Positions 42,201 to 57,208 of a stretch of 64,000 nt of DNA are shown one piece after another. Source of the DNA: Macrostomum lignano (lineage: Eukaryota); the NCBI GenBank assembly GCA_002269645.1, contig NIVC01001057.1, positions 186,001-250,000 of the forward strand, in the 5' to 3' direction. Under the pieces are notes generated by a model. That model saw only the letters and a list, made by a program, of their open reading frames with translations. It did not search any database and was not told the DNA's origin. The translations under genes and the position numbers were made by a program. Within the stretch, counting starts at the first letter, position 1, and every line of letters begins with the position of its first letter.

Positions 42201-44348
42201 CGTCTGTGCGTCCAGTGCGAGCTAAAGTGAACTCTTATTTTGTTGTTGAGTCGGACTACTCGGAATGCGGCCTCGCATGAAGGTTGTTTGGACTCAGTGC
42301 GAAATGAGATTCGGGCTAAGCTAGACTTTGCACTGAAAGGAGCTCAGACACTATACGAAGGGAGCTCAGGCACAGTCTGAAGGGAGCTCAGACGCGAAAT
42401 GAAGGGAGCTCAGGCACTGTATGAAGGGAGCTCAGACGCGAAATGAAGGGAGCTCAGGCACTGTATGAAGGGAGCTCAGAAGCGAAATCAAGGGAGCTCA
42501 GGCCCTGTATGAAGGGAGTTCAGACGCGAAATGAAGGGAGTTCAGGCACTGGATGAAGGGAGCTCAGACACTATATCAAAAGAGCTCAGACACTATATGA
42601 AGGGAGCTCAGGCACTGTATGAAGGGAGTTCAGGCACTGTATGAAGGGAGTTCAGGCACTGTATGAAGGGAGTTCAGACGCGAAATGAAGGGAGTTCAGG
42701 CACTGGATGAAGGGAGCTCAGACACTATATCAAAAGAGCTCAGACACTATATGAAGGGAGCTCAGGCACTGTATGAAGGGAGCTCAGGCACTGTATGAAG
42801 CGAGTTTAGGCACTGTATGAATGGAGTTCAGGCACTGTATGAAGGGAGTTCAGACGCGAAATGAAGGGAGTTCAGGCACTGTATGAAGGGAGCTCAGACG
42901 CGAAATGAAGGGAGTTCAGGCACTGGATGAAGGGAGACCAGACACTATATCAAAAGAGCTCAGACACTATATGAAGCGAGTTTAGGCACTGTATGAATGG
43001 AGTTCAGGCACTGTATGTAGGGAGTTCAGACACTGTATGAAGGGAGCTCAGACACTGAGACACGTACCTCTTCCAGGAAGGCCTCAGCATAGGGCAGTTT
43101 ATCCTTATCAGCGTAGGAGGCGTCCCCGCCTGCGGCTTCGAGTTCCTCGCGCAGCCGGCGCTGCGCCTCAGGGTGCAGGGAGGCGAGCAGCAGCGCCCAG
43201 CGCACCAGGTTGGCCACAGCGTCGACTCCTCCAGTCATCAGGTCGAAGATCGTCATGGCCAGGCGGCCGTCGCGCATGGACGGAGCCGCAGGGTCGTCCG
43301 GCGCCGTCTCTGCCGCCGTTGCCGCCCCCGTGGCTTCGTCGACTGCTGCGTCCCCGGCGGCGTCCCGACGGCCGCTGTCGTTCTCGTCGTCGCTGAAGTA
43401 GTTGGTCTTCTCGCGCAGGTAGAACTCGATGTAGTCTGAGTAGTCCCGGCTGCACTGCCGGGCCAGCGCCGCCCCGCCCGCCTGCTGGCTGTGGCGGAGG
43501 CTGCGCCGCCGCTTGTCGATTTGCTCCTGGCACATCCGCAGCGCCTCCATGACCAGCGGCTCCGGCCGGCCCAGGCACAGCAGTCGGCGAACGGCCGGCC
43601 CCAGAGGCCAGGGCAGCTTCCCGAGGCGCCTCATCAGAGTCTGGGCCAGGCTGAGCCGGTTCTCCTGTTCGATGGACTGCATGAGCGGCAGCTTGGAGTA
43701 GAAGCGCTCGTCGTAGGCCACCTGCTCGCAGCCGAAGATCATCCGGCTGATGACGGCGCTGACGCTCTGAGTCACCAGCTCGCCGACGTCCAGCTCGGCC
43801 GAGCGCAGCTGCGGCGCCGGCCCGGCCGGGAGGCGGTCGCGAATCTCCTGGACAATCTGGCGCGACTCCTCGGCCACGTCGGCCTGACAGGCCGGCCGGC
43901 CCCAGCCGAAGTCGTTGAGAGCGCGGACGCTGAACGTCCGGTGGGCGCGCCAGAGTTTGCCTTCGCTGAGGGCCAGGCCGCCGACCTGCTTGCGCCAGGG
44001 CAACTGCGGCCGGCCCAGGAGGCTCTCGTTGAGGAAAACCTCGCGGATCTCATCGTAGCCAGAGACGATCACGGCCAGGTGGTCGGGGAAGCGCACCTGG
44101 ATCACCGGGCCGTAGCGCGCCTTGCCCTCGCGCTCCACCCAGCGCCACAACGGCAGCTCAACGTGGAAGTGGCTGCCAATCAACGGCCAGGCCGGAGGCC
44201 CGGGCGCGTCGCAAGTCACGTGACGCCGGTTGCGACGCCGAACAGCCAGAAGCAGCAGCAGAAGCAGAATCAGGCCAGGCAGAAGCAGACTCTTTGTCAG
44301 CGACGATTGCCCGCCGTTGCCGCCTTTGCTGTTGTCCTCGTGTCCCAT
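39259..44348 (-). CDS. Cytochrome P450 (clan 2-like), 588 aa; exons 43068-44348 and 39259-39744
   Basis: N-terminal anchor plus PPAWPLIG hinge, WxxxR (LWRAHR), ExxR split by a phase-0 intron (EE|VQR), PDRF, heme motif PFSLGKRACPG; GT-AG junction. Confidence 0.92.
39923..41786. repeat. Intronic 21-bp minisatellite ATGGATCACAGACCAGACACA
   Basis: Tandem units in the CYP intron; source of the MDHRPDT/CVWSVIH ORFs. Confidence 0.95.
42346..43057. repeat. Intronic 22-bp minisatellite TGAAGGGAGCTCAGGCACTGTA
   Basis: Tandem units abutting the CYP donor site. Confidence 0.92.
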
Positions 44349-46449: not shown

Positions 46450-46507
46450 ATGAAGGGCGGCAGACCTGGGGTCAGAGAGTTTGCCCAGCGGTCGGCTTGG
46501 CTTCTCC

Positions 46508-47583
46508 TGTAGAGTGTTCTACCTCCCGTAAGAAGACATAAAAGTGTTAATGTACTACTCACACATTTTATTTAGTAGTAAATTGAAGAGCATGAATAAA
46601 GGTATGCTTTGAACTATAAGTATATTCGGACTAACCAATAGAAAGAGAGAAACCTCGAGCATGCTAATTTTAGAAATCACCCAATCACGTGCGACCAACA
46701 ACTGTCAATTCAAACCCCACCTTCAAGTCATCATTTGGTTTGCACTCGGGTTGCACCCGGATGAACCAATCAAAGTCTACCAGCTACGGTAACCAATCAT
46801 GCGCTTTTACAGTAGACTAGTTGCGCAACTTTCTACCCTGTCATGCTTGACAGCCACCGAATCGTGACCCTTTGACATTTGCGAAGACAGTGATGTACGA
46901 CCTCGAGAGAGGTCTGAACGCCTATAAATACAAGTGGTCCGGAACGGACCCGGAGCCAGAAAATCTCCAAGGGAGAGAAGCTCCGAAGAGGAAGCTCTAG
47001 TGAAGCCTTCCTGAAGAAACTCGCGTCGTGGACGAGTTCTTGCGGTAAGCCTTACTCATTTGCGCCCGTTGGTTGAGACGTCTCGCTCAAGTCTATTGAG
47101 ACTTGAGTTTATTTGAGTCTGCTGAGACTCTTGAGTCTGTTTAGACTCCACTGGTTGCAGTCTCCAGAAGGACTGCCCCTGATAGATCTTAGAAGACTAT
47201 CAGTGGTTTCCGGAGCCATACCTAGAGTGCATAGAGGCACTACTAGAAGGAGTAGGCTTATATTAAACCGCAGTTTGGCGCAGGGATCCCCATTGTTAAT
47301 TTGGAAGCTTCCGATTGGTCCGAACTACAGATACCGGCCGGCAAGAAGTCAAGAGGACAAAGGAGATAACGGACCAGATCAACTGTTACCAGGCGCCTAA
47401 ACTTCCTGAAGGACAGGAAAGTTACTGATCGCGATACTACGGACGAGGATTATTACGAGAGCTCTCATTTAAGGACTCAAAGGTAATTGAATACCTTCAT
47501 TTGATTACTGGGTTGCCTAGCTACAGAGCTAGAAGTGATTGTTCCTTGATTACAGTTGAGGACTGGTAATAAGGAACACATCA
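46508..47583 (+). repeat. 5' LTR (1076 bp)
   Basis: Starts TGTAGAG, ends ACATCA; several CCAAT boxes and TATAAATA at about 46924. Confidence 0.95.
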
Positions 47584-47600
47584 ATTGGTGATCTCGCCCT
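47584..47600 (+). other. Primer-binding-site-like sequence (TGGTGATCTCG...)
   Basis: TGG two nt after the LTR end; cognate tRNA not identified (partly Trp-like). Confidence 0.55.
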
Positions 47601-48279
47601 CTCGGCACTACTCAAACTTTTGAGCAATAGCCTGGCCAAGCTATTGTAAAGTGACGAAAGAGCGACTTCATTAATTTTGCGCGCACGTGTTAGAGGTAAC
47701 ACTTTTCGACACTTTTCGATTTTTGTACGATTTGAAACTCGAGTAAAAGTTTAGATATACAGGCTTGAGTACCTGTCAATTTTGAGTAACGTTTGAGCAC
47801 GCGTGTTAAATTTTTGTTTTTATCGAGCTCGAGCAAGAGTAAACCTTAAACAAAACCGAAAACAACGTCCGGTACACTGAAAACAAACCGAAAAATAATC
47901 AATACACACTAAAACAAAACCGAAATTAAAAACACTTGACGAAAGCTAAAACAAACCGAAATTTGATAAAACGTGACAAGGCACGTCACGAAGACAAGAA
48001 AGGCCTTTGAAAAAAGCAAGAAGCAGCTGCACTTCAAGCACTTTAAAGATACACTTTGCGGGACGCCGCATAAGTGCGAAAATCAGCCAGCGAATAAGAG
48101 GTCAGAAAAAGCAGCCAAAAGCCGAATTCCGTTCAAGGTCAGACATAACAAATTGAGGTGTCAAAAGCGCCGCGAGACAATCAGTTACAACCGAAGTTTA
48201 TTTCGAAAGAAACACCACACTGGAAGATCCATTACAAATCGACCCAGACCTAGAGCTACCGTTCTATCCCATCAACAAC

Positions 48280-49260
48280 ATGGCGCGGCGCAATCCAACG
48301 GTGCACAGAGATATCAAAGAGACAGTTGGCACCTTTTCTATGGAAAAAGACTTTAACACCTTTGTTGATCATTTTGACCTGGTATGTAGGGAATACAACC
48401 TACAAAATCCAGAAAAAGCGCAACTGTTGCCACCACTCCTCCAAGGCACTGCACGAGAGATTTATGGTAAACTAGATGCGGCAACACAGCAAAACTACCC
48501 AGCATTAATCATTCAACTGCGCGCGCATTTCAACCGCTGTGGCACAAACAGATCAGTGCTACTGCACAAGTTGCATAACAGAAGGATGCAGCCAACCGAA
48601 TCCTTCCTGACCTTTGTGGACGACATCCGTCAGATAATTAAGGCACTGCATCAGCCAACACTGCCAGCTGCAGACCAACCACCTCTGGGTGCGGCAGAAT
48701 TAGCCGCTAGAGAGCGACACGATTGATGGATCGCGAACAAAATCTGATTCTGCACGTAATAAACAATGCACAGCCGTCACTCCGAGATAGACTTCTACGC
48801 GAAAACATTGAAACCGAGGAAGACCTTTTACGGTGCGGAATGCAGTGGGAAGCAAGCGCTCCACTAATGACAACCGGCAACACAGAAGTGCAGAAACTGA
48901 CACAGCAACTAAACAAACTGATGCAACATCAAACAGCCGTTATCGCCGAACAAAAAAGACGAAATGAACGAGCCCAAGCCAGATGCTATTACTGTGGACG
49001 AGAAGGACACTACCAAATAATTGTCCTCATCGGTCAACAAGAAATGATATGCCGCGACAGCCATTCAACAGACGGAAGCCGCAAAAACCATGGCAACAGC
49101 ATCAAAATTGGCAGCAGCAAAACACGAAACGCTTCGGAAACAATGGCTACAGACCGCGAAACGCCAGATACATGCCCAAGCAACCAACGCAAGCGATGCA
49201 ACGATATGCAAACGCCATCACGTACACACCGGAAAGCGAACAGCAAGAGCAGCAAGTCTT
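48280..49260 (+). CDS. gag: Gag: Ty3/Gypsy capsid plus CCHC zinc knuckle (frameshifts at about 48722 and 49012)
   Basis: FNTFVDHF...LLQGTAREIY...L.NRRMQPTESF capsid pattern; CYYCGREGHY/(P)NNC knuckle restored by adding one base. Confidence 0.8.
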
Positions 49261-49929
49261 CACGATAGACGACTTAGAAATGGACTTCACTATCAATGAA
49301 ATCGACTGGCTCGATGCGGAGAGCAGCGAAAAGACAAAAAACATCAGCATGGTCGAAATGAAAGAAACTAACATTGACAGCGAAGAAGAAAAGACAGAAG
49401 TGAGCACAGAAAAAACATTGCCAAGCGACATCAGTGAAAGAAAAGAAGAAACAAACAAAGGCAACGACAAAGAACTGGCAACGAAGGATGACAACGAAAG
49501 AAGCAACGACGGAAATACAGAGATGGAAGAAGAACAGCAAGAAGAAAGCAGCGATCACGATTATGAGATGCAGAATGACGCTGATGACAACCAAGCCGCC
49601 GACAAAGAACATGAAGACGGAAGGCACAAAGGAATGGAAGAAAGAAATCTAAGCTCCGACAGCGATCAATGCTACGAGATCCGATATAAACGAAATGGTG
49701 AAGCCTACATTCAAACGGTCGACTACAAGGCCGAAGTGAGGTACCGCAGACAATGGAGTGACACAACTACAACATCGGAAGAAAGCAAGGAAGAAAATGA
49801 TGAAGACGACAAGCAGCGGAACGAATCGGATGCCTTGCGCTCGGAAACGCCAATGGAACAAGAGGAAGAATACGATGCGGACGTAGAAGATAACGAATGG
49901 CAGCCGCAGCCAATGCCAGCAAAGACAAC

Positions 49930-52020
49930 GGCAACGTTCAGAAAATGGCGATTCTGGATATTCTGGATCATCATAATACTACTGACGGCAGTAGTCACCA
50001 AAGCAACAGCAATGGAAAACCAATGATATGTCCAACGGATGCGCATATCCAACCGATGATCTACAAGATACCAACCGACATCAAATGCAGCTACTTCAAG
50101 ACAAACCAGACGAAGCCAAAAAGATCACAATCGATCTCTACAAAGCCAACATCAAGAAGCATCGACAACTTGGAATCGTGTGCTTCAGAGACAAGCACCT
50201 AGTCGAAAAAATATGGCGAGGACAATGGAACAGAATCCGATTCCGACAGCATGAGCTACATGTGTCGCACGCTGACTGCCTACGATGGAACCAGACATTG
50301 TTCTCCAAAGATGGTGTACTAGAACCTGATGAAAAGGTCGGCAACGCACAACTCTTCCGAACAAAGAATGTGGCAAACGGTCGATATGTCCACTATAATG
50401 AAAGATGGCCTGACTACACGGCACGCAACAGCTACCTAATCAGGAATATTCCATTCTACCACAATCCTTTTGAAAAAATGGAGTCGCTACAACTGCAATT
50501 AAGTGACTGCCGATACAGCAAAGGATGGTGTCCAACGCCGATACTGCGGAATGAGGAACTATACAGCTTACCGTTGAGTCCAACATATCATCAAGACTAT
50601 CGATGGCAAATTATACGCAGAGGCGACTCACGATATGAAGAACCATCTAAGTCACGACAATACTTCTTCGCGTGGAAGTTGAGCCGGAAATTGACTGCAA
50701 GCTTCAAAAGTATCACACAGTTGAAGGAGGCTACTGTCAAACACGTTTTTGGCAAAGTCAGGAGACTTGGCACTGACGTTTCAAAAGAAACCAGTCGAGC
50801 AAAAACTGAAATGCAAGGATACAGACAAGACACTATTCATCTCGGAACAAGAGATACCAGTCTACGTAAAAGATGACGACAAACAAACCTTTCTGGCGAT
50901 CATCAACGGAACTTATCAACAGCAGGAACAACAGAACAGACGACGACGAGACATCGAACGTCCCAAACTGGTGTCAAACCGACTACTGTCAGCAAAGATA
51001 ACGGCTTTGGATCACAATCTACACAACCAGTTAAACCACTTGCATCGAACACTGGTCCAGCTAACTTGCAAAATGCACGCAATCAACTTAAATTATGCCA
51101 GACAAAACTACTATGTCAACCCTACGATGACTTTTCGTAAAATCACCGGAATGACGAACGTTTTGGCAGTTCCAATATACGAGCATCTGTTGATATACAA
51201 GTGCACGCCGATACAGCACTTTAACATCTTGCCGTCGAACACGTCAACAACCTGCTACGACAAGCCAAGGATTGAAGCGTTCTACGAAGGAAAACGAATT
51301 CAGGGATTCTTGGACACGGTACACAACATCATCGTTGGCACCGCAATACCGAGACCTTGCACCACGGCAGCAAACTATTATCAACTGGACAATGCACTAC
51401 ACGTCATCAAAACAACTGGAACGACAGCAAACATCACAGAACCGGAAGTAATCGTCGACGAAAACTACGACATGGAGGATTTGAAAATCCGATTCAACAG
51501 AACGAAGTATACGCCATTCGCCGATATCCAACTTGACGAGATAACACCAGGATGGACGATCAACGACTTCTTGCAAGCGTTCATCACCCAACGCAAGATG
51601 ATTCACCAGCTGTTCACAAGAAAGGACAAAGGAACCGGGACAGGAAGATTTCCCGTCCTTGTTTCAATGGACAGCGCCATCAAATCATTTTGGACAAACA
51701 GCTTCTGGGAGCTGCTCAATGGAAGAGGCAGTCTCTATCAAGGATTCATCTTCTACGGTGCTTGCATTGTGTGGATTGTCACGGCAATCTTCATCATTTC
51801 GTCGATCGTACGGTGCTTCAGTCAAACTTGTCCAAGAGCTAAGAAGACAGTGAATGCCATAATGCAAAGAACGACAACGGAAGGCGACAACAGTTTAGAA
51901 CTAACAGAAACTGCACATCGTGAGGTTCAAGGGCAACCGACACTAGCAACGCGGCTATATCCATCGATTCCGACAACACCAACGGCACCAAGAATACAAC
52001 CACCTAACTATCAAGCAGAA
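49930..52020 (+). CDS. env: Envelope glycoprotein, class III (herpes gB-like); signal, ectodomain, furin site, TM, tail; four frameshifts (about 50020, 50120, 50677, 50750)
   Basis: Hydrophobic signal RFWIFWIIIILLTAVVTKATA; RRRR|D at 50938; N-glycan sequons NQT, NGT, NTS, NIT, NRT; gB-like blocks TCK...NPT...ITG...LIYKC and CYDKPRI...GFL...RPCT; TM at about 51742-51810. Confidence 0.75.
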
Positions 52021-52049
52021 CAGCAAGACCCAAAATGGCCAGAGAACTA

Positions 52050-55000
52050 CGTATGTACTCTACACGCCGAAATTGGCAAAGCCATGGCTCAAGTGGTAAT
52101 CAACAATCTACCATGTCGAGCGCTACTCGACTCCGGCAGCTCCATCACAGTTATATCAAAACAACTGTGCAACAAGCTACGACTTGCTCTACGGCCAGCA
52201 ACAATCGCAGTTGCAGGAGCAGGAGGACATTCGCTAAACATTCTGGGAAAAGCCGACATTGATTTAAGAATCGCTAATAAACATTTGACAGTTCCACGTA
52301 CGTCATCGACAGACTCCCAAACCAGGACGTTATTGTTGGCATCGACACGTTCAAGCAGCTTCGACTACCATTGACCTTCGACTTCAATAAGCAAACGTTT
52401 AAGATCGACTCGGTAGAACAACCATTGATCAACCAGATCCGAGTACTACCAAAAGTAACATTGCAACAAGATGTCATCATCCAACCGGAGAGCGCCTGCT
52501 GGATAAAGGCAAAGGCAACTAACGCAACGGAGGAAGCAATGATATTCGACCCAAACAGAAGAGTCACGGCTAAACACCAAATTATGATGCCTACGGCACT
52601 AGTACTGGTTGCAAAAGATAAACAGCTGCCAGTACAAATATTCAACCCGAACACAGAAACGGTTCATCTACGACAAGGAATGTGCATCGGTCATCTCAAC
52701 ACCCAAGCATCGGTTATGCTGATTGAGCAAGCGACTCCACGACTAACAGAGGAAGAATTTCAAAAGAAGATCAATTTGGATGACAGCCCGATTACGGAAC
52801 AGCAAAAGAGGAAAGTTCGACAGCTGTTGTGGAAGTACAACGACGCTTTCTGCCACCATGACTACGACATCGGACGAGCCAAGGACATCAAACAGGAAAT
52901 CAAACTTCTGCCGCACACGGAACCAATTCAGTGCAAACCGTACCCGATCGCCAAGCATCTGCAACAGCACTTCGATGAGATTATCGACAAAATGCTGAAA
53001 CACGGCATCATCAGCAAAGCCATTTCAGCATACTCATCACCATGTCTCTTGGTGCAAAAGAAGGAGACTAACGAAAGACGACTCGTATGTGACTTCAGAC
53101 TACTGAACAAGTACATACCGACGGATCAGCAAAGCCTACCGAAGATCTCCGAACTACTAGCAAAGCTCAACACGGCAAAATTGTTCACAGTGTTCGATCT
53201 ACGTCATGGATTTTGGCAAATTGAAATCGAGAAAGAGTCACGACAGTACACGGCTTTCAAAACCTACAATGGACAAGTATACGAGTACAATCGATCGCCG
53301 ATGGGACTCAGCAACAGCCCAGCAACGATGAGCCGACTAACAGCATACATGCTTGCAGGATGCACGAACCTGTTGCACTATGTTGACGACATCTTGGCCT
53401 ACGGAGAAGACTTCGAACGACTCTATGAAGCGACGGAGAAGGCCCTCGCGCTTATACAACGTCAAGGTCTGAAGCTACAACCAACTAAATGCAAATTCTT
53501 CCGAGACAACGTGCGTTACCTGGGACATCAGGTGACAGCCAAAGGAATTTCACCGGACCCAGACAACGTGGATAAAGTGAAAAAGTTTCCTACGCCAACT
53601 AGCAAAACGAAGGTCCAATCATTTCTTGGACTTGCGCAATACTTCCGAAAGTTCTTACCCAACTTCGCGAAGACAGCAAAGCCGCTGTACGACCTGCTCA
53701 AGTTCGACAAATGGAAGCAGGAGAATTGGACACAAAAGCAACAAGAAAGTTTTGACGAAATCAAACGACAGCTGACATCAGACGCACTGCTACAGCATCC
53801 GGACTTCGACAAACCCTTCATCATCGAGACAGACGCCTCAGGAACGGGACTCGGAGCAGTCCTACTACAGGAAACTGAAGACAAAAAGGAACGACCTATA
53901 GCCTACGTCAGTCGAGCACTTAAACCGAATGAGACAAAATGGTCAGCTACGGAACGAGAACTACTAGGAGTTCTGTTCGCCCTACGACAGTTTCACTACT
54001 ACATCTATGGATCTCCATTACAGACGATAGTACGCACAGATCATGCACCGCTGACCTACGTCGTAACTACAAAAGGACAAACAAACAACCGACTCATCAG
54101 GATGACACTCAAGATCCAGGACTACAACTACAAGCTCGTCTACAAACCAGGAATTACTAACAAGGCCGCGGACGCCCTGTCAAGAGCCTACGAAGTCAAC
54201 GCCATTCATCCAATCCCTAACATCAAGGAATTGGTGGATGAGACTGAACACGACAACTTCTACATAGCAGTTAAAAACAACGACAAGGACATCAAGCTCA
54301 GCCCCGTGGAACGAAAATTCCTGCGCAAGCAGCGACAACATTTAACAATCAACAAGTCACGACTCTACTGGATGAGTGACAACAAACCTAAAATCTACAT
54401 GCCATATTCGTTTAGGCAGGCAATTCTCAACGAGCTGCACGACAACCCACTCGCTGGACACCTGTCGGCAGCCAAAACCATTGCAAGAGTGGAGCAATAC
54501 TACTTTTGGCCAAGCATGCATGGCGACATCAAGCAGTATTGCAACAACTGCCACTCATGCGCAGCATCAAAGACAGGACGACGACAAAAACCACAGCTAC
54601 AATCGATACCAAAGTCAACAACTATGGACTGTCTCAGCATCGACATCACCGGACCGCTGCCACCGAGCTGTCTCCATGGCATAGCCTACACCTACATCCT
54701 AACAGCCTTGGACATTTTCTCAAAGTTTGCTATTGCCATACCAATACCGGACATCACAGCTCAGACAGTGGCAATGGGTTTCTTCAACGACATCATCTGC
54801 AAGTACGGTACGCCAAAGAACCTCACATCGGACAATGGATCGCAGTTTACGTCTCAACTCTTTCAGCAAGTGGTGAAGATCCTCAACATCACGCAGATCT
54901 ACACATCGACCTACAATCCGAAGGCGAACATGGTTGAAAGGTTTCACCGCAACCTACACGAGATGATTACACACTTCGCGCATCAACAACCGGACGACTG

Positions 55001-55613
55001 GATCATCTATCTGCAAGCAGTAACAATGGCCTACAACAGCGCTATTCATCGATCAACGGACAATACGCCATTCTTTCTAATGTTTGGGCGAGACTTCCAG
55101 CCGCCAAACCTATTGGCACAGCAACTACTACCATCGCAATATGTGGAAGTCCCGACGTCCATTCAAAAGTTCGTCACGCAACTACACCTCGCATGGAAAG
55201 TAGCCAAGCACAACATCGACAATCAGGTGGCTCTAACCACCGGCACCGACACGAGATCGACAACTCTGACAGCCGGCGACATCGTCTACCTGCACTATCC
55301 GCCGCAACAGACGCACAAACACGCACAGAAGTACAAAGGACCATATCGAGTGGTCCAACTAACGTCACCGACAACGGCACGCCTGGCCAATGTGCAAGAT
55401 CCTCATCAGCACCAATTCTACGTGCACATTCATCGACTAAAGAAGATCAACACTGACACGACAACGTTTTTACCGTCACTAGACAACGCTGATCGCACGC
55501 GTTCGGCGAACCGCCACATCGCAACAAAACACGAGGAGACACAAACATCAACCGAGAACAGCAACACGGCTACAATCTGCGACCTCGTTAAGTTGCGAAA
55601 ACAACCCGTGTAG
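52050..55613 (+). CDS. pol: Pol: aspartic protease, RT, RNase H, integrase (one frameshift at about 52294)
   Basis: ALLDSGS (52129); DFRLLN, DLRHGFWQI, PMGLSNSP, YVDDIL; ETDAS, ERELL, TDH, ADALSR; HDNPLAGH/CHSC, IDITGP, SDNGSQF, VERFHR, GPY. Confidence 0.97.
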
Positions 55614-55702
55614 AGACCGGGTCAGAATAGCTCTACAGCTTCGCAAGCTTGTCGTAAGAGGCGACTAATCTGAGCGACTTCAAACTTCAAGCGACGACGA
55701 CA

Positions 55703-55915
55703 ATGGGCAACGCACTGTCCAAACAGGCGCCCCAACTACAGCAACTCTACGAATGCCCAATATGTTTAACTGATGACTTGGCTGTCAAGCCACCAATTAT
55801 TTGTGAAAACAGACATCGCATATGCGGACAATATTTAAGCGACTCACATTATATTCAGCTCTGGCAGAATTGCCCGATAGGTAGAAGTAGTTTGCGGCAG
55901 TGCGCCTATTGTTAG
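55703..55915 (+). CDS. 70-aa accessory ORF: N-myristoylation motif plus degenerate SINA-type RING
   Basis: Strong start context ACAATGG; MGNALS; C18xxC21...C34xxxH38xxC41xxY44...C57PIG60R plus terminal CxxC. Confidence 0.55.
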   Translation: MGNALSKQAPQLQQLYECPICLTDDLAVKPPIICENRHRICGQYLSDSHYIQLWQNCPIGRSSLRQCAYC

Positions 55916-56133
55916 TCTTGGCGCACATGTCAATACTGTAACCAAAAACATTTTATTTGCATGCGTATACTTACCTTTAAATAACTTTTATAACCAACGC
56001 TCTTAACTACCCATTACTAAATACCTGTAACACTTGTGACAAATGATTATTATAAAGACATGCTTGAACTTTTTATGCGTTTCAATCCTCTATTTAAAAC
56101 TCGGGACGAGTTTTTTGTAAACATGGGAGATTT

Positions 56134-57208
56134 TGTAGAGTGTTCTACCTCCCGTAAGAAGACATAAAAGTGTTAATGTACTACTCACACATTTTATTTA
56201 GTAGTAAATTGAAGAGCATGAATAAAGGTATGCTTTGAACTATAAGTATATTCGGACTAACCAATAGAAAGAGAGAAACCTCGAGCATGCTAATTTTAGA
56301 AATCACCCAATCACGTGCGACCAACAACTGTCAATTCAAACCCCACCTTCAAGTCATCATTTGGTTTGCACTCGGGTTGCACCCGGATGAACCAATCAAA
56401 GTCTACCAGCTACGGTAACCAATCATGCGCTTTTACAGTAGACTAGTTGCGCAACTTTCTACCCTGTCATGCTTGACAGCCACCGAATCGTGACCCTTTG
56501 ACATTTGCGAAGACAGTGATGTACGACCTCGAGAGAGGTCTGAACGCCTATAAATACAAGTGGTCCGGAACGGACCCGGAGCCAGAAAATCTCCAAGGAG
56601 AGAAGCTCCGAAGAGGAAGCTCTAGTGAAGCCTTCCTGAAGAAACTCGCGTCGTGGACGAGTTCTTGCGGTAAGCCTTACTCATTTGCGCCCGTTGGTTG
56701 AGACGTCTCGCTCAAGTCTATTGAGACTTGAGTTTATTTGAGTCTGCTGAGACTCTTGAGTCTGTTTAGACTCCACTGGTTGCAGTCTCCAGAAGGACTG
56801 CCCCTGATAGATCTTAGAAGACTATCAGTGGTTTCCGGAGCCATACCTAGAGTGCATAGAGGCACTACTAGAAGGAGTAGGCTTATATTAAACCGCAGTT
56901 TGGCGCAGGGATCCCCATTGTTAATTTGGAAGCTTCCGATTGGTCCGAACTACAGATACCGGCCGGCAAGAAGTCAAGAGGACAAAGGAGATAACGGACC
57001 AGATCAACTGTTACCAGGCGCCTAAACTTCCTGAAGGACAGGAAAGTTACTGATCGCGATACTACGGACGAGGATTATTACGAGAGCTCTCATTTAAGGA
57101 CTCAAAGGTAATTGAATACCTTCATTTGATTACTGGGTTGCCTAGCTACGGAGCTAGAAGTGATTGTTCCTTGATTACAGTTGAGGACTGGTAATAAGGA
57201 ACACATCA
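56134..57208 (+). repeat. 3' LTR (1075 bp)
   Basis: Differs from the 5' LTR by one G indel and one A/G substitution that I could find. Confidence 0.95.

What the first reader, a model, noticed from the sequence alone, without database searches (positions are those of the whole stretch)
55703..55915. Small myristoylated RING accessory ORF after integrase, reminiscent of arenavirus Z
Seen: a strong-context ATG, MGNALS (Gly2/Ser6), and a RING layout with 6 of 8 ligands. Positions 6 and 8 are TAT and GGT, each one substitution from TGT; there is an extra C-terminal CxxC. Established: arenavirus Z is a small myristoylated RING matrix protein, and ECPIC...PPI..C.N.H is SINA-like. Inference: a membrane-targeted matrix/budding factor or an E3-ligase-like host antagonist, which could supply the membrane-targeting function that Gag (starting MARR, no Gly2) appears to lack.
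Basis: partly seen in the sequence, partly recalled or inferred. Interest (0 to 1): 0.72.

Follow-up and report, generated by a model that had tools for sequence, protein, structure and literature searches.

The report
Broken stub of retrotransposon double-RING gene
This small gene is the broken front third of a larger zinc-finger gene that a retrovirus-like jumping element, probably of a flatworm, normally carries in two or three versions; the intact versions are likely the element's own ubiquitin ligases, and the stub is likely not a virus-style matrix protein.

Summary
The 70-codon ORF is real but is a stub. It is the front of the first of two or three paralogous ~200-220-aa accessory genes (RING-RING plus an unassigned helical domain) lying between pol and the 3' LTR of a gag-env-pol Ty3/gypsy element. 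The 'extra CxxC' is the start of RING2. The window's young subfamily shares a stop after codon 70, loss of RING ligand 8 (22 of 22 copies) and loss of about 1.2 kb holding the rest of the cassette, so this copy is probably decaying and dispensable in cis. Intact relatives show purifying selection (dN/dS about 0.1-0.3), Sina-type RING matches and a conserved Arg after RING1, which points to E3 ligases. Gly2 marks one clade only, PTAP/PPxY late motifs are absent, and Gag is fused to Env, so the arenavirus-Z reading is not supported. Second-position genes sit behind splice acceptors; the first sits behind a conserved pseudoknot with no Rfam match. The element type is published (errantivirus, HSV/gB-type Env); my searches found no description of the cassette. 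The scan noted the cassette before on other copies of this genome.

The parts
46508..47583 (+). 5' LTR (TG...CA), preceded by the 4-bp target-site duplication CTCC at 46504-46507
   Evidence: 1076 vs 1075 nt, 1 mismatch and 1 gap against the 3' LTR
47586..47597 (+). Primer-binding site; same 12 nt as that listed for the flatworm GAG-ENV-POL errantivirus in PMC13524379
48280..55613 (+). gag - env (class III / gB-like) - protease - RT - RNase H - integrase; several frames in the window, one ~2460-aa frame in some relatives
55605..55666 (+). Conserved predicted H-type pseudoknot plus hairpin between pol and the first RING gene; no Rfam family
55703..55915 (+). The finding: truncated first accessory gene. 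N-terminal Gly2 motif, RING1 lacking ligands 6 and 8, first CxxC of RING2, then a stop
55916..55964 (+). Untranslated remnant of RING2 coding sequence, still alignable to relatives
55965..56093 (+). About 130 nt of AT-rich DNA standing where relatives have about 1.3 kb (rest of gene 1 and all of gene 2); matched only subfamily copies among loci L021-L100
56134..57208 (+). 3' LTR, preceded by a purine tract at 56125-56130 and followed by CTCC

Best explanation
The ORF is the truncated front of the first gene in a cassette of two or three double-RING accessory genes of a gag-env-pol gypsy retrotransposon; it is probably a decaying stub, and the intact genes are likely element-encoded E3 ubiquitin ligases. 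Shown: truncation, ligand loss, cassette anatomy, purifying selection on intact copies. Inferred: RING1 recruits and activates a host E2~ubiquitin, RING2 and the helical domain pick host substrates (plausibly restriction or silencing factors), and in one clade an N-myristoyl group brings gene 1's product to membranes. Gene 2 would be translated from a spliced mRNA and gene 1 by a route tied to the upstream pseudoknot. The window's subfamily lost the cassette and kept transposing, so the proteins are accessory and may be supplied in trans by intact relatives.
For: Relatives encode 216-222-aa gene 1 and 198-219-aa genes 2 and 3 with two C3HC4 sets. Full RING1 in 61 of 73 records outside the subfamily and 0 of 22 inside; ligand 8 is Cys in 69 of 73 vs 0 of 22. 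The stop is shared by 19 of 19 other copies checked and the deletion junction by 20 of 20; contigs of three public runs match 55765-56130 with 0-1 other letters, so it is no assembly error. Copies are young, separate insertions: 0-6 LTR mismatches in 14 measurable of 20, 12 different target duplications, 2 of 20 with an unbroken ~2500-aa frame. dN/dS 0.12-0.30 for gene 1 (8 pairs with dS under 2, of 28) and 0.17-0.25 for gene 2 (4 pairs with dS under 1.5, of 21); changes private to the window ORF are 6 replacement to 2 silent (P = 0.036 under 0.17). E3 signs: Sina_RING in 15 of 17, best E 1.3e-9; SIAH1, RING1B, TRIM21 top PDB hits; model pLDDT 87.9 whose RING1 aligns to RNF146 (Z 4.5, rmsd 2.2, 47 residues) and RNF4 (Z 4.2, rmsd 3.3, 49); Arg after the last RING1 cysteine in 16 of 16 aligned proteins and absent after RING2. 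CAG within 0-2 nt of the ATG in 49 of 54 second/third-position starts vs 0 of 89 first-position starts.
Against: No activity, substrate or protein product is shown. Most Pfam RING scores are under the curated cut-off and structural Z-scores are under 5. Pairwise dN/dS of the window's 70 codons against relatives is still 0.16-0.23, and the decay signal rests on 8 changes, with columns where relatives disagree left uncounted. The subfamily keeps Gly2, Ser6, five or six ligands and Arg61, so a residual role of the stub is not excluded. Two cross-paralogue gene-2 pairs give 0.53-0.54. Genome redundancy may inflate copy counts (PMC12801592 passage).
Confidence: 0.72

Rival explanations
1. The 70-aa product is a functional arenavirus-Z-like matrix or budding factor that anchors Gag at membranes.
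For: MGNALS fits the N-myristoylation pattern, and Gly2/Asn3/Ala4/Ser6 persist between two lineages with dS about 1.5. The stub has a YxxL at 50-53 in 22 of 22 subfamily copies. Z is defined by myristoylation, a RING and late domains (PMC3509680 passages).
Against: The size comes from a break. The RING is incomplete in 22 of 22 copies. That YxxL is in 1 of 73 relatives, and PTAP/PSAP/PPxY in 0 of 103 records. Gly2 is absent from 20 records of the sister clade, from the aligned gene-2/3 proteins and from the outside homologues. Gag is in frame with Env's hydrophobic segments.
Confidence: 0.04
2. The intact double-RING proteins are non-catalytic zinc-finger scaffolds, for example a Rev/CERV-like factor that binds the adjacent pseudoknot and exports unspliced RNA.
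For: A spliced, cysteine-rich accessory protein does this in Cer1 (PMC10309623 passages). The element has splice acceptors and a conserved RNA structure next to gene 1.
Against: The invariant Arg after RING1 and the hydrophobic/Pro pattern fit E2 binding. Subfamilies without gene 2 and with a cut gene 1 have spread (47 of 74 records), which argues against an essential export role unless it is supplied in trans.
Confidence: 0.15
3. The shortened forms (70, 124 and 144 aa) are selected variants, such as myristoylated decoys, and not decay products.
For: The cassette is shortened in at least three ways and these forms are numerous: 21 and 26 records against 24 that keep gene 2. The 124- and 144-aa forms mostly keep both RINGs.
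Against: For the 70-aa form, replacements accumulate at the neutral ratio and hit zinc ligands. Shorter genomes can spread without any benefit from the stub.
Confidence: 0.09

Closest known systems
GAG-ENV-POL errantiviruses with HSV/gB-type ENV of Platyhelminthes, Bryozoa and Nematoda (Chary and Hayashi, eLife 2026, PMC13524379), in particular the Macrostomum lignano element in its supplement
   Same: Gene order gag-env-pol, class III-like Env (PF24664, E 1.2e-5, 4 of 4, under cut-off), two LTRs, same 12-nt primer-binding site, host label from an 84% UniRef hit.
   Different: A 3' cassette of two or three double-RING genes and a pseudoknot; 'RING' and 'zinc finger' do not occur in its main text, nor RING, zinc or C3HC4 in its 7 supplement files held as text.
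Non-env ORF3 cargo of bdelloid LTR retrotransposons (GDSL esterase, DEDDy exonuclease; PMC5408684)
   Same: Captured accessory genes after pol, typically read from spliced messages (passages).
   Different: There one ORF3 of another kind; 'RING' has no occurrence. Here env is kept inside the polyprotein and the cargo is a paralogue array.
MDG1-group sORF1/sORF2 of Drosophila (PMC11952523)
   Same: Accessory ORFs in a gypsy-type element; Gly2 motif in only some members (4 of 6 sORF2; passages).
   Different: sORF2 is a transmembrane FAST-like fusogen of env-less elements; these proteins carry two RINGs and their element has env.
Sina/SIAH-type C3HC4 RING E3 ligases and viral RING E3s (herpes ICP0, giant-virus RING proteins)
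   Same: RING1 sequence and fold, C-x3-H spacing, Arg after the last cysteine.
   Different: Tandem second RING and a ~110-aa helical domain with no assigned family or fold; no SIAH substrate-binding domain.
Arenavirus Z protein
   Same: Gly2 myristoylation pattern plus a RING, in one clade of gene 1.
   Different: Z is 90-99 aa with one RING and late domains (PMC3509680 abstract start and passages); the intact protein here is 222 aa with two RINGs and no conserved late motif.

Membership tests
Arenavirus Z-like matrix protein | N-terminal Gly2 myristoylation signal, conserved across the family | tested here: not met
   Pattern present in the window and in 72 of 94 Met-starting gene-1 records, but only in one integrase clade; absent in the sister clade, in genes 2/3 and in outside homologues
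Arenavirus Z-like matrix protein | One complete RING in a 90-99-aa protein | tested here: not met
   Window: incomplete RING in 22 of 22 subfamily copies; intact relatives: two RINGs in about 220 aa
Arenavirus Z-like matrix protein | Late domains (PTAP/PSAP, PPxY, YxxL) | tested here: not met
   PTAP/PSAP/PPxY in 0 of 103; the stub's YxxL in 1 of 73 relatives; any YxxL in 5 of 33 full-length proteins
Arenavirus Z-like matrix protein | Sequence or fold match to Z | tested here: inconclusive
   Z is not listed; an unlisted family is not excluded
RING-type E3 ubiquitin ligase (intact relatives) | Complete C3HC4 ligand set and RING fold | tested here: met
   61 of 73 records; Pfam and PDB RING hits; confident model
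RING-type E3 ubiquitin ligase (intact relatives) | E2-binding residues and Arg linchpin in RING1 | tested here: met
   Arg61 in 16 of 16 aligned proteins and 64 of 73 records; role from PMC12326332 passages, its position after the last Cys is recalled
RING-type E3 ubiquitin ligase (intact relatives) | E2-dependent ubiquitin transfer | not testable with these tools
   Needs a biochemical assay
RING-type E3 ubiquitin ligase (window ORF) | Eight zinc ligands | tested here: not met
   Six of eight; both missing ligands belong to the cross-brace sites by standard RING numbering (recalled)
GAG-ENV-POL errantivirus (Ty3/gypsy) | LTRs, PBS, RT-RH-IN order, env between gag and protease | tested here: met
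GAG-ENV-POL errantivirus (Ty3/gypsy) | HSV/gB-type (class III) Env | tested here: inconclusive
   PF24664 at E 1.2e-5 in 4 of 4, under the cut-off; no PDB sequence hit; Env not folded here
Known structured RNA family (xrRNA, ribozyme, IRES) | Match to an Rfam model | tested here: inconclusive
   No meaningful hit at E up to 10 over 55500-56200; function untested

The most novel reading that the evidence does not exclude
These flatworm errantiviruses are 'complex' retroelements with an old, duplicated arsenal of their own ubiquitin ligases aimed at host restriction or piRNA factors: gene 2 made by splicing, gene 1 from a subgenomic RNA defined by an undescribed pseudoknot (xrRNA- or IRES-like). 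Cassette-less lineages such as the window's would spread as cheaters on proteins supplied by intact copies.
Probability: 0.25. Interest if true: 0.78.

Novelty: new variant of a known kind. Interest (0 to 1): 0.5.

Why it matters
Ubiquitin ligases are a standard counter-defence of large DNA viruses, and lentiviruses hijack host ones (own knowledge), but my searches found none encoded by an LTR retrotransposon. A selected, paralogous double-RING cassette in a tractable flatworm would make counter-defence by an invertebrate endogenous retrovirus testable by RNAi and ligase assays. The window's copy itself matters mainly as a natural loss-of-function lineage showing that the cassette is dispensable in cis.

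Tried and rejected
Arenavirus Z: not listed in PDB sequence searches, in Pfam scans of seven RING pieces at E up to 10, among the top 50 viral folds or the top 50 VIA rows. Word-seeded protein searches found nothing with gene 1 or with the 16-protein alignment; only near lengths were searched. The helical domain alone gave no usable Atlas hit, no credible Pfam or PDB sequence hit and only generic bundles (best Z 5.7, rmsd 2.8, 69 residues). Host donor gene: an outside homologue as query returned places that largely coincide with the element-linked ones (150 of 184 candidates scored); intron-split host genes could be missed. Expression: no RNA holder listed; runs are guessed RNA and kept as contigs, and no joint from the LTR or leader to a RING gene appeared, which says nothing either way. 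Readthrough or frameshift fusion of pol to gene 1 rejected: 10-18 nt from stop to pseudoknot and all three frames in 7 copies. Plain folding energy of the motif is unremarkable (z -0.94, pseudoknots not modelled). Searches (mis-indexed structure; pattern with a wrong spacer, 12 hits vs 16 control) were my slips, redone. HDV-like, pistol, twister and hammerhead layouts were compared by eye from memory and did not fit.

Full report
Observation. The ORF is as described: 70 codons at 55703-55915, starting MGNALS, with six of eight RING ligands and a last CxxC. Alone it matches Pfam RING families only weakly (best E 0.035) and TRAF6 and SIAH1 RINGs at E 0.04-0.13. It lies inside a Ty3/gypsy element, 46508-57208, whose LTRs differ by one mismatch and one gap and which is flanked by a 4-bp duplication.

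The element. The order is gag, env, protease, RT, RNase H, integrase. Two of six sibling stretches examined carry this as one ~2460-aa frame, with hydrophobic segments near residues 570-600 and 1170-1203, a furin-like site between them, the zinc knuckle before and the protease after. Env matches PF24664 in 4 of 4 copies under the cut-off. The window's frame is interrupted at several single-base indels; contigs of the public runs laid on it show the other form at most of these, so they are probably assembly errors. A UniRef protein labelled Macrostomum lignano is 84% identical to a sibling's gene 2. Chary and Hayashi (PMC13524379; I saw the abstract, outline, part 1 of 2 of section 5, term passages and searches of 7 supplement files) report GAG-ENV-POL elements with HSV/gB-type Env in flatworms and list one for this species with the same 12-nt primer-binding site. 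The element type is therefore known. Because Gag is made in frame with Env's first hydrophobic segment, it would be membrane-tethered without a matrix helper (inference).

What the ORF is. The own-genome search gave 107 matches at 43-100% identity. I fetched stretches covering them and four more (100 loci). In relatives the frame runs on to 216-222 aa: RING1, RING2, then a helical domain with a Trp-Pro motif. A second paralogue of 198-219 aa follows, and in some lineages a third. Of 103 first-position records that passed my filter (frameshifted copies such as L081, L082, L089 and L095 fell out), 22 form the window's subfamily. None of the 22 has Cys at ligand 8, 6 have it at ligand 6, and none has a full RING1. 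Among 73 others that reach codon 60 the counts are 69, 71 and 61; 8 short records were left out. The stop after codon 70 is shared by 19 of 19 other copies and the downstream junction by 20 of 20. About 130 nt of unrelated AT-rich DNA stands where relatives have 1.3 kb. Public contigs carry the same 3' region.

Age and spread. In 14 of 20 subfamily copies both LTRs could be compared: 0-6 mismatches, matching target duplications in 13, of 12 different sequences; 2 of 20 have an unbroken frame of about 2500 aa. The lineage thus kept transposing after losing the cassette. Among 74 records of the Gly2 clade, 21 are the 70-aa type, 26 have other deletions that remove gene 2 (gene 1 mostly 124 or 144 aa), 24 keep gene 2 and 3 are unclear. 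Counts may be inflated by assembly redundancy (PMC12801592, passages).

Selection. Intact gene-1 copies give dN/dS 0.12-0.30 in the 8 of 28 pairs with dS under 2. Gene 2 gives 0.17-0.25 in the 4 of 21 pairs with dS under 1.5, and 0.53-0.54 in two cross-paralogue pairs. The window's 70 codons still give 0.16-0.23 against relatives, which mostly reflects older history. Changes private to it are 6 replacement and 2 silent, and variants among L001-L020 are 10 and 4, against 163.5 and 46.5 sites. The private ratio fits neutrality and is unlikely under 0.17 (P = 0.036). This is a small sample, and variants in single copies are neutral in any transposon.

What the intact proteins look like. Sina_RING matches 15 of 17; a profile finds SIAH1, RING1B and TRIM21 first. 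The model of a natural 222-aa copy is confident (pLDDT 87.9). RING1 aligns to cellular E3 RINGs at Z 3.4-4.5 and to viral RING proteins with no hit at E under 0.001. An Arg follows the last RING1 cysteine in 16 of 16 aligned proteins and is absent after RING2. An Arg linchpin stabilises E2~ubiquitin (PMC12326332, passages; its position is recalled). The helical domain is unassigned. Four Logan proteins of unstated origin are 27-34% identical and share the double RING, three of them also the helical domain. In the tree two group with gene 1 and two with genes 2/3 (95/93, long branches), which hints that the duplication is old.

Gly2. It occurs in 72 of 94 Met-starting gene-1 records, all in one integrase clade (100/100 in a 12-row tree), and in none of the aligned gene-2/3 or outside proteins. 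It persists across dS of about 1.5, so myristoylation in that clade is plausible, but it is not a family trait. Arenavirus Z is defined by myristoylation, one RING and late domains (PMC3509680, passages). PTAP, PSAP and PPxY are absent from all 103 records, and the stub's YxxL is in 1 of 73 relatives.

How the genes would be read. A CAG lies within 0-2 nt of the ATG in 49 of 54 second/third-position starts (the 5 exceptions are third-position genes) and in 0 of 89 first-position starts, which points to splicing for gene 2. Gene 1 follows a 62-nt motif, 55605-55666, conserved in lineages whose pol is about 72% identical. On 21 of the 28 distinct sequences found, an H-type pseudoknot plus hairpin is 98.4% paired with compensatory change at 2 loop-pairing positions; 0 of 500 shuffles reach the pairing or covariation score but 448 reach the count of pairs, and the sequences are related. 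Its core occurs 107 times against 10 for the control, and by my cross-check 96 of the 100 listed lie beside a gene-1 match. Rfam has no match. Candidates are an xrRNA making a coding subgenomic RNA, as in plant viruses (PMC6299227, abstract only), an IRES or reinitiation element, or a packaging or export signal. None is tested.

Novelty. Searches and term look-ups in PMC13524379, PMC5408684 and PMC12801592 found no LTR retrotransposon with RING genes. Subscription papers, Repbase-type entries and supplements other than those of PMC13524379 were not seen. The nearest precedents are the bdelloid ORF3 cargo (PMC5408684, passages), CERV of Cer1 (PMC10309623, passages) and the MDG1 sORFs (PMC11952523, passages). 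Two earlier notes of this scan describe the same cassette on other copies; my reading was recorded before I saw them, and they are not counted as support.

Verdict. Observation confirmed, interpretation partly supported. The window's ORF is a stub (about 0.9). The cassette it comes from is real, selected and apparently undescribed, with E3 activity the likeliest function (about 0.65). Interest 0.5; new variant of a known kind.

Noticed in passing
window 47045-47330: A GT..AG joint skipping 286 nt inside the LTR appears in contigs of 4 of 4 runs laid; its donor is a candidate for splicing to gene 2. Runs are only guessed to be RNA.
   Followed up: partly
window 1-36800: A ~37-kb inverted duplication of minisatellite arrays, arms up to 2650 nt at 100%; may be a real palindrome or an assembly artefact.
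   Followed up: no
window 43026-44348 (-): Cytochrome P450-like ORF (PF00067, E 2.5e-31) about 2 kb from the element's 5' LTR, on the opposite strand.
   Followed up: no
G000 contigs C2121 (+), C4009 (+), C1130 (-), C87 (-), C272 (-), C1405 (-): Nests of many family members and fragments, all on one strand per contig and rich in full cassettes; could be piRNA-cluster-like traps or self-insertion.
   Followed up: no
L040 and near-identical cassettes L083-L088, L092: L040 has most of pol and part of env deleted but keeps gag and an intact pair of RING genes; several copies share its 3' region.
   Followed up: partly
L109, L112, L113, L115: The truncated 3' end also sits behind the gag/env of the sister lineage, and the window's integrase is identical to a lineage whose gene 1 is only 67% alike: frequent recombination.
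   Followed up: partly
L035:8054-9153 (-): Frames resembling a mariner-type transposase (by eye, recalled motifs) are inserted in gene 1.
   Followed up: no
P0002: The UniRef 'RING-type domain-containing protein' is a gene model that strings together pieces of several element copies, not a host gene.
   Followed up: partly
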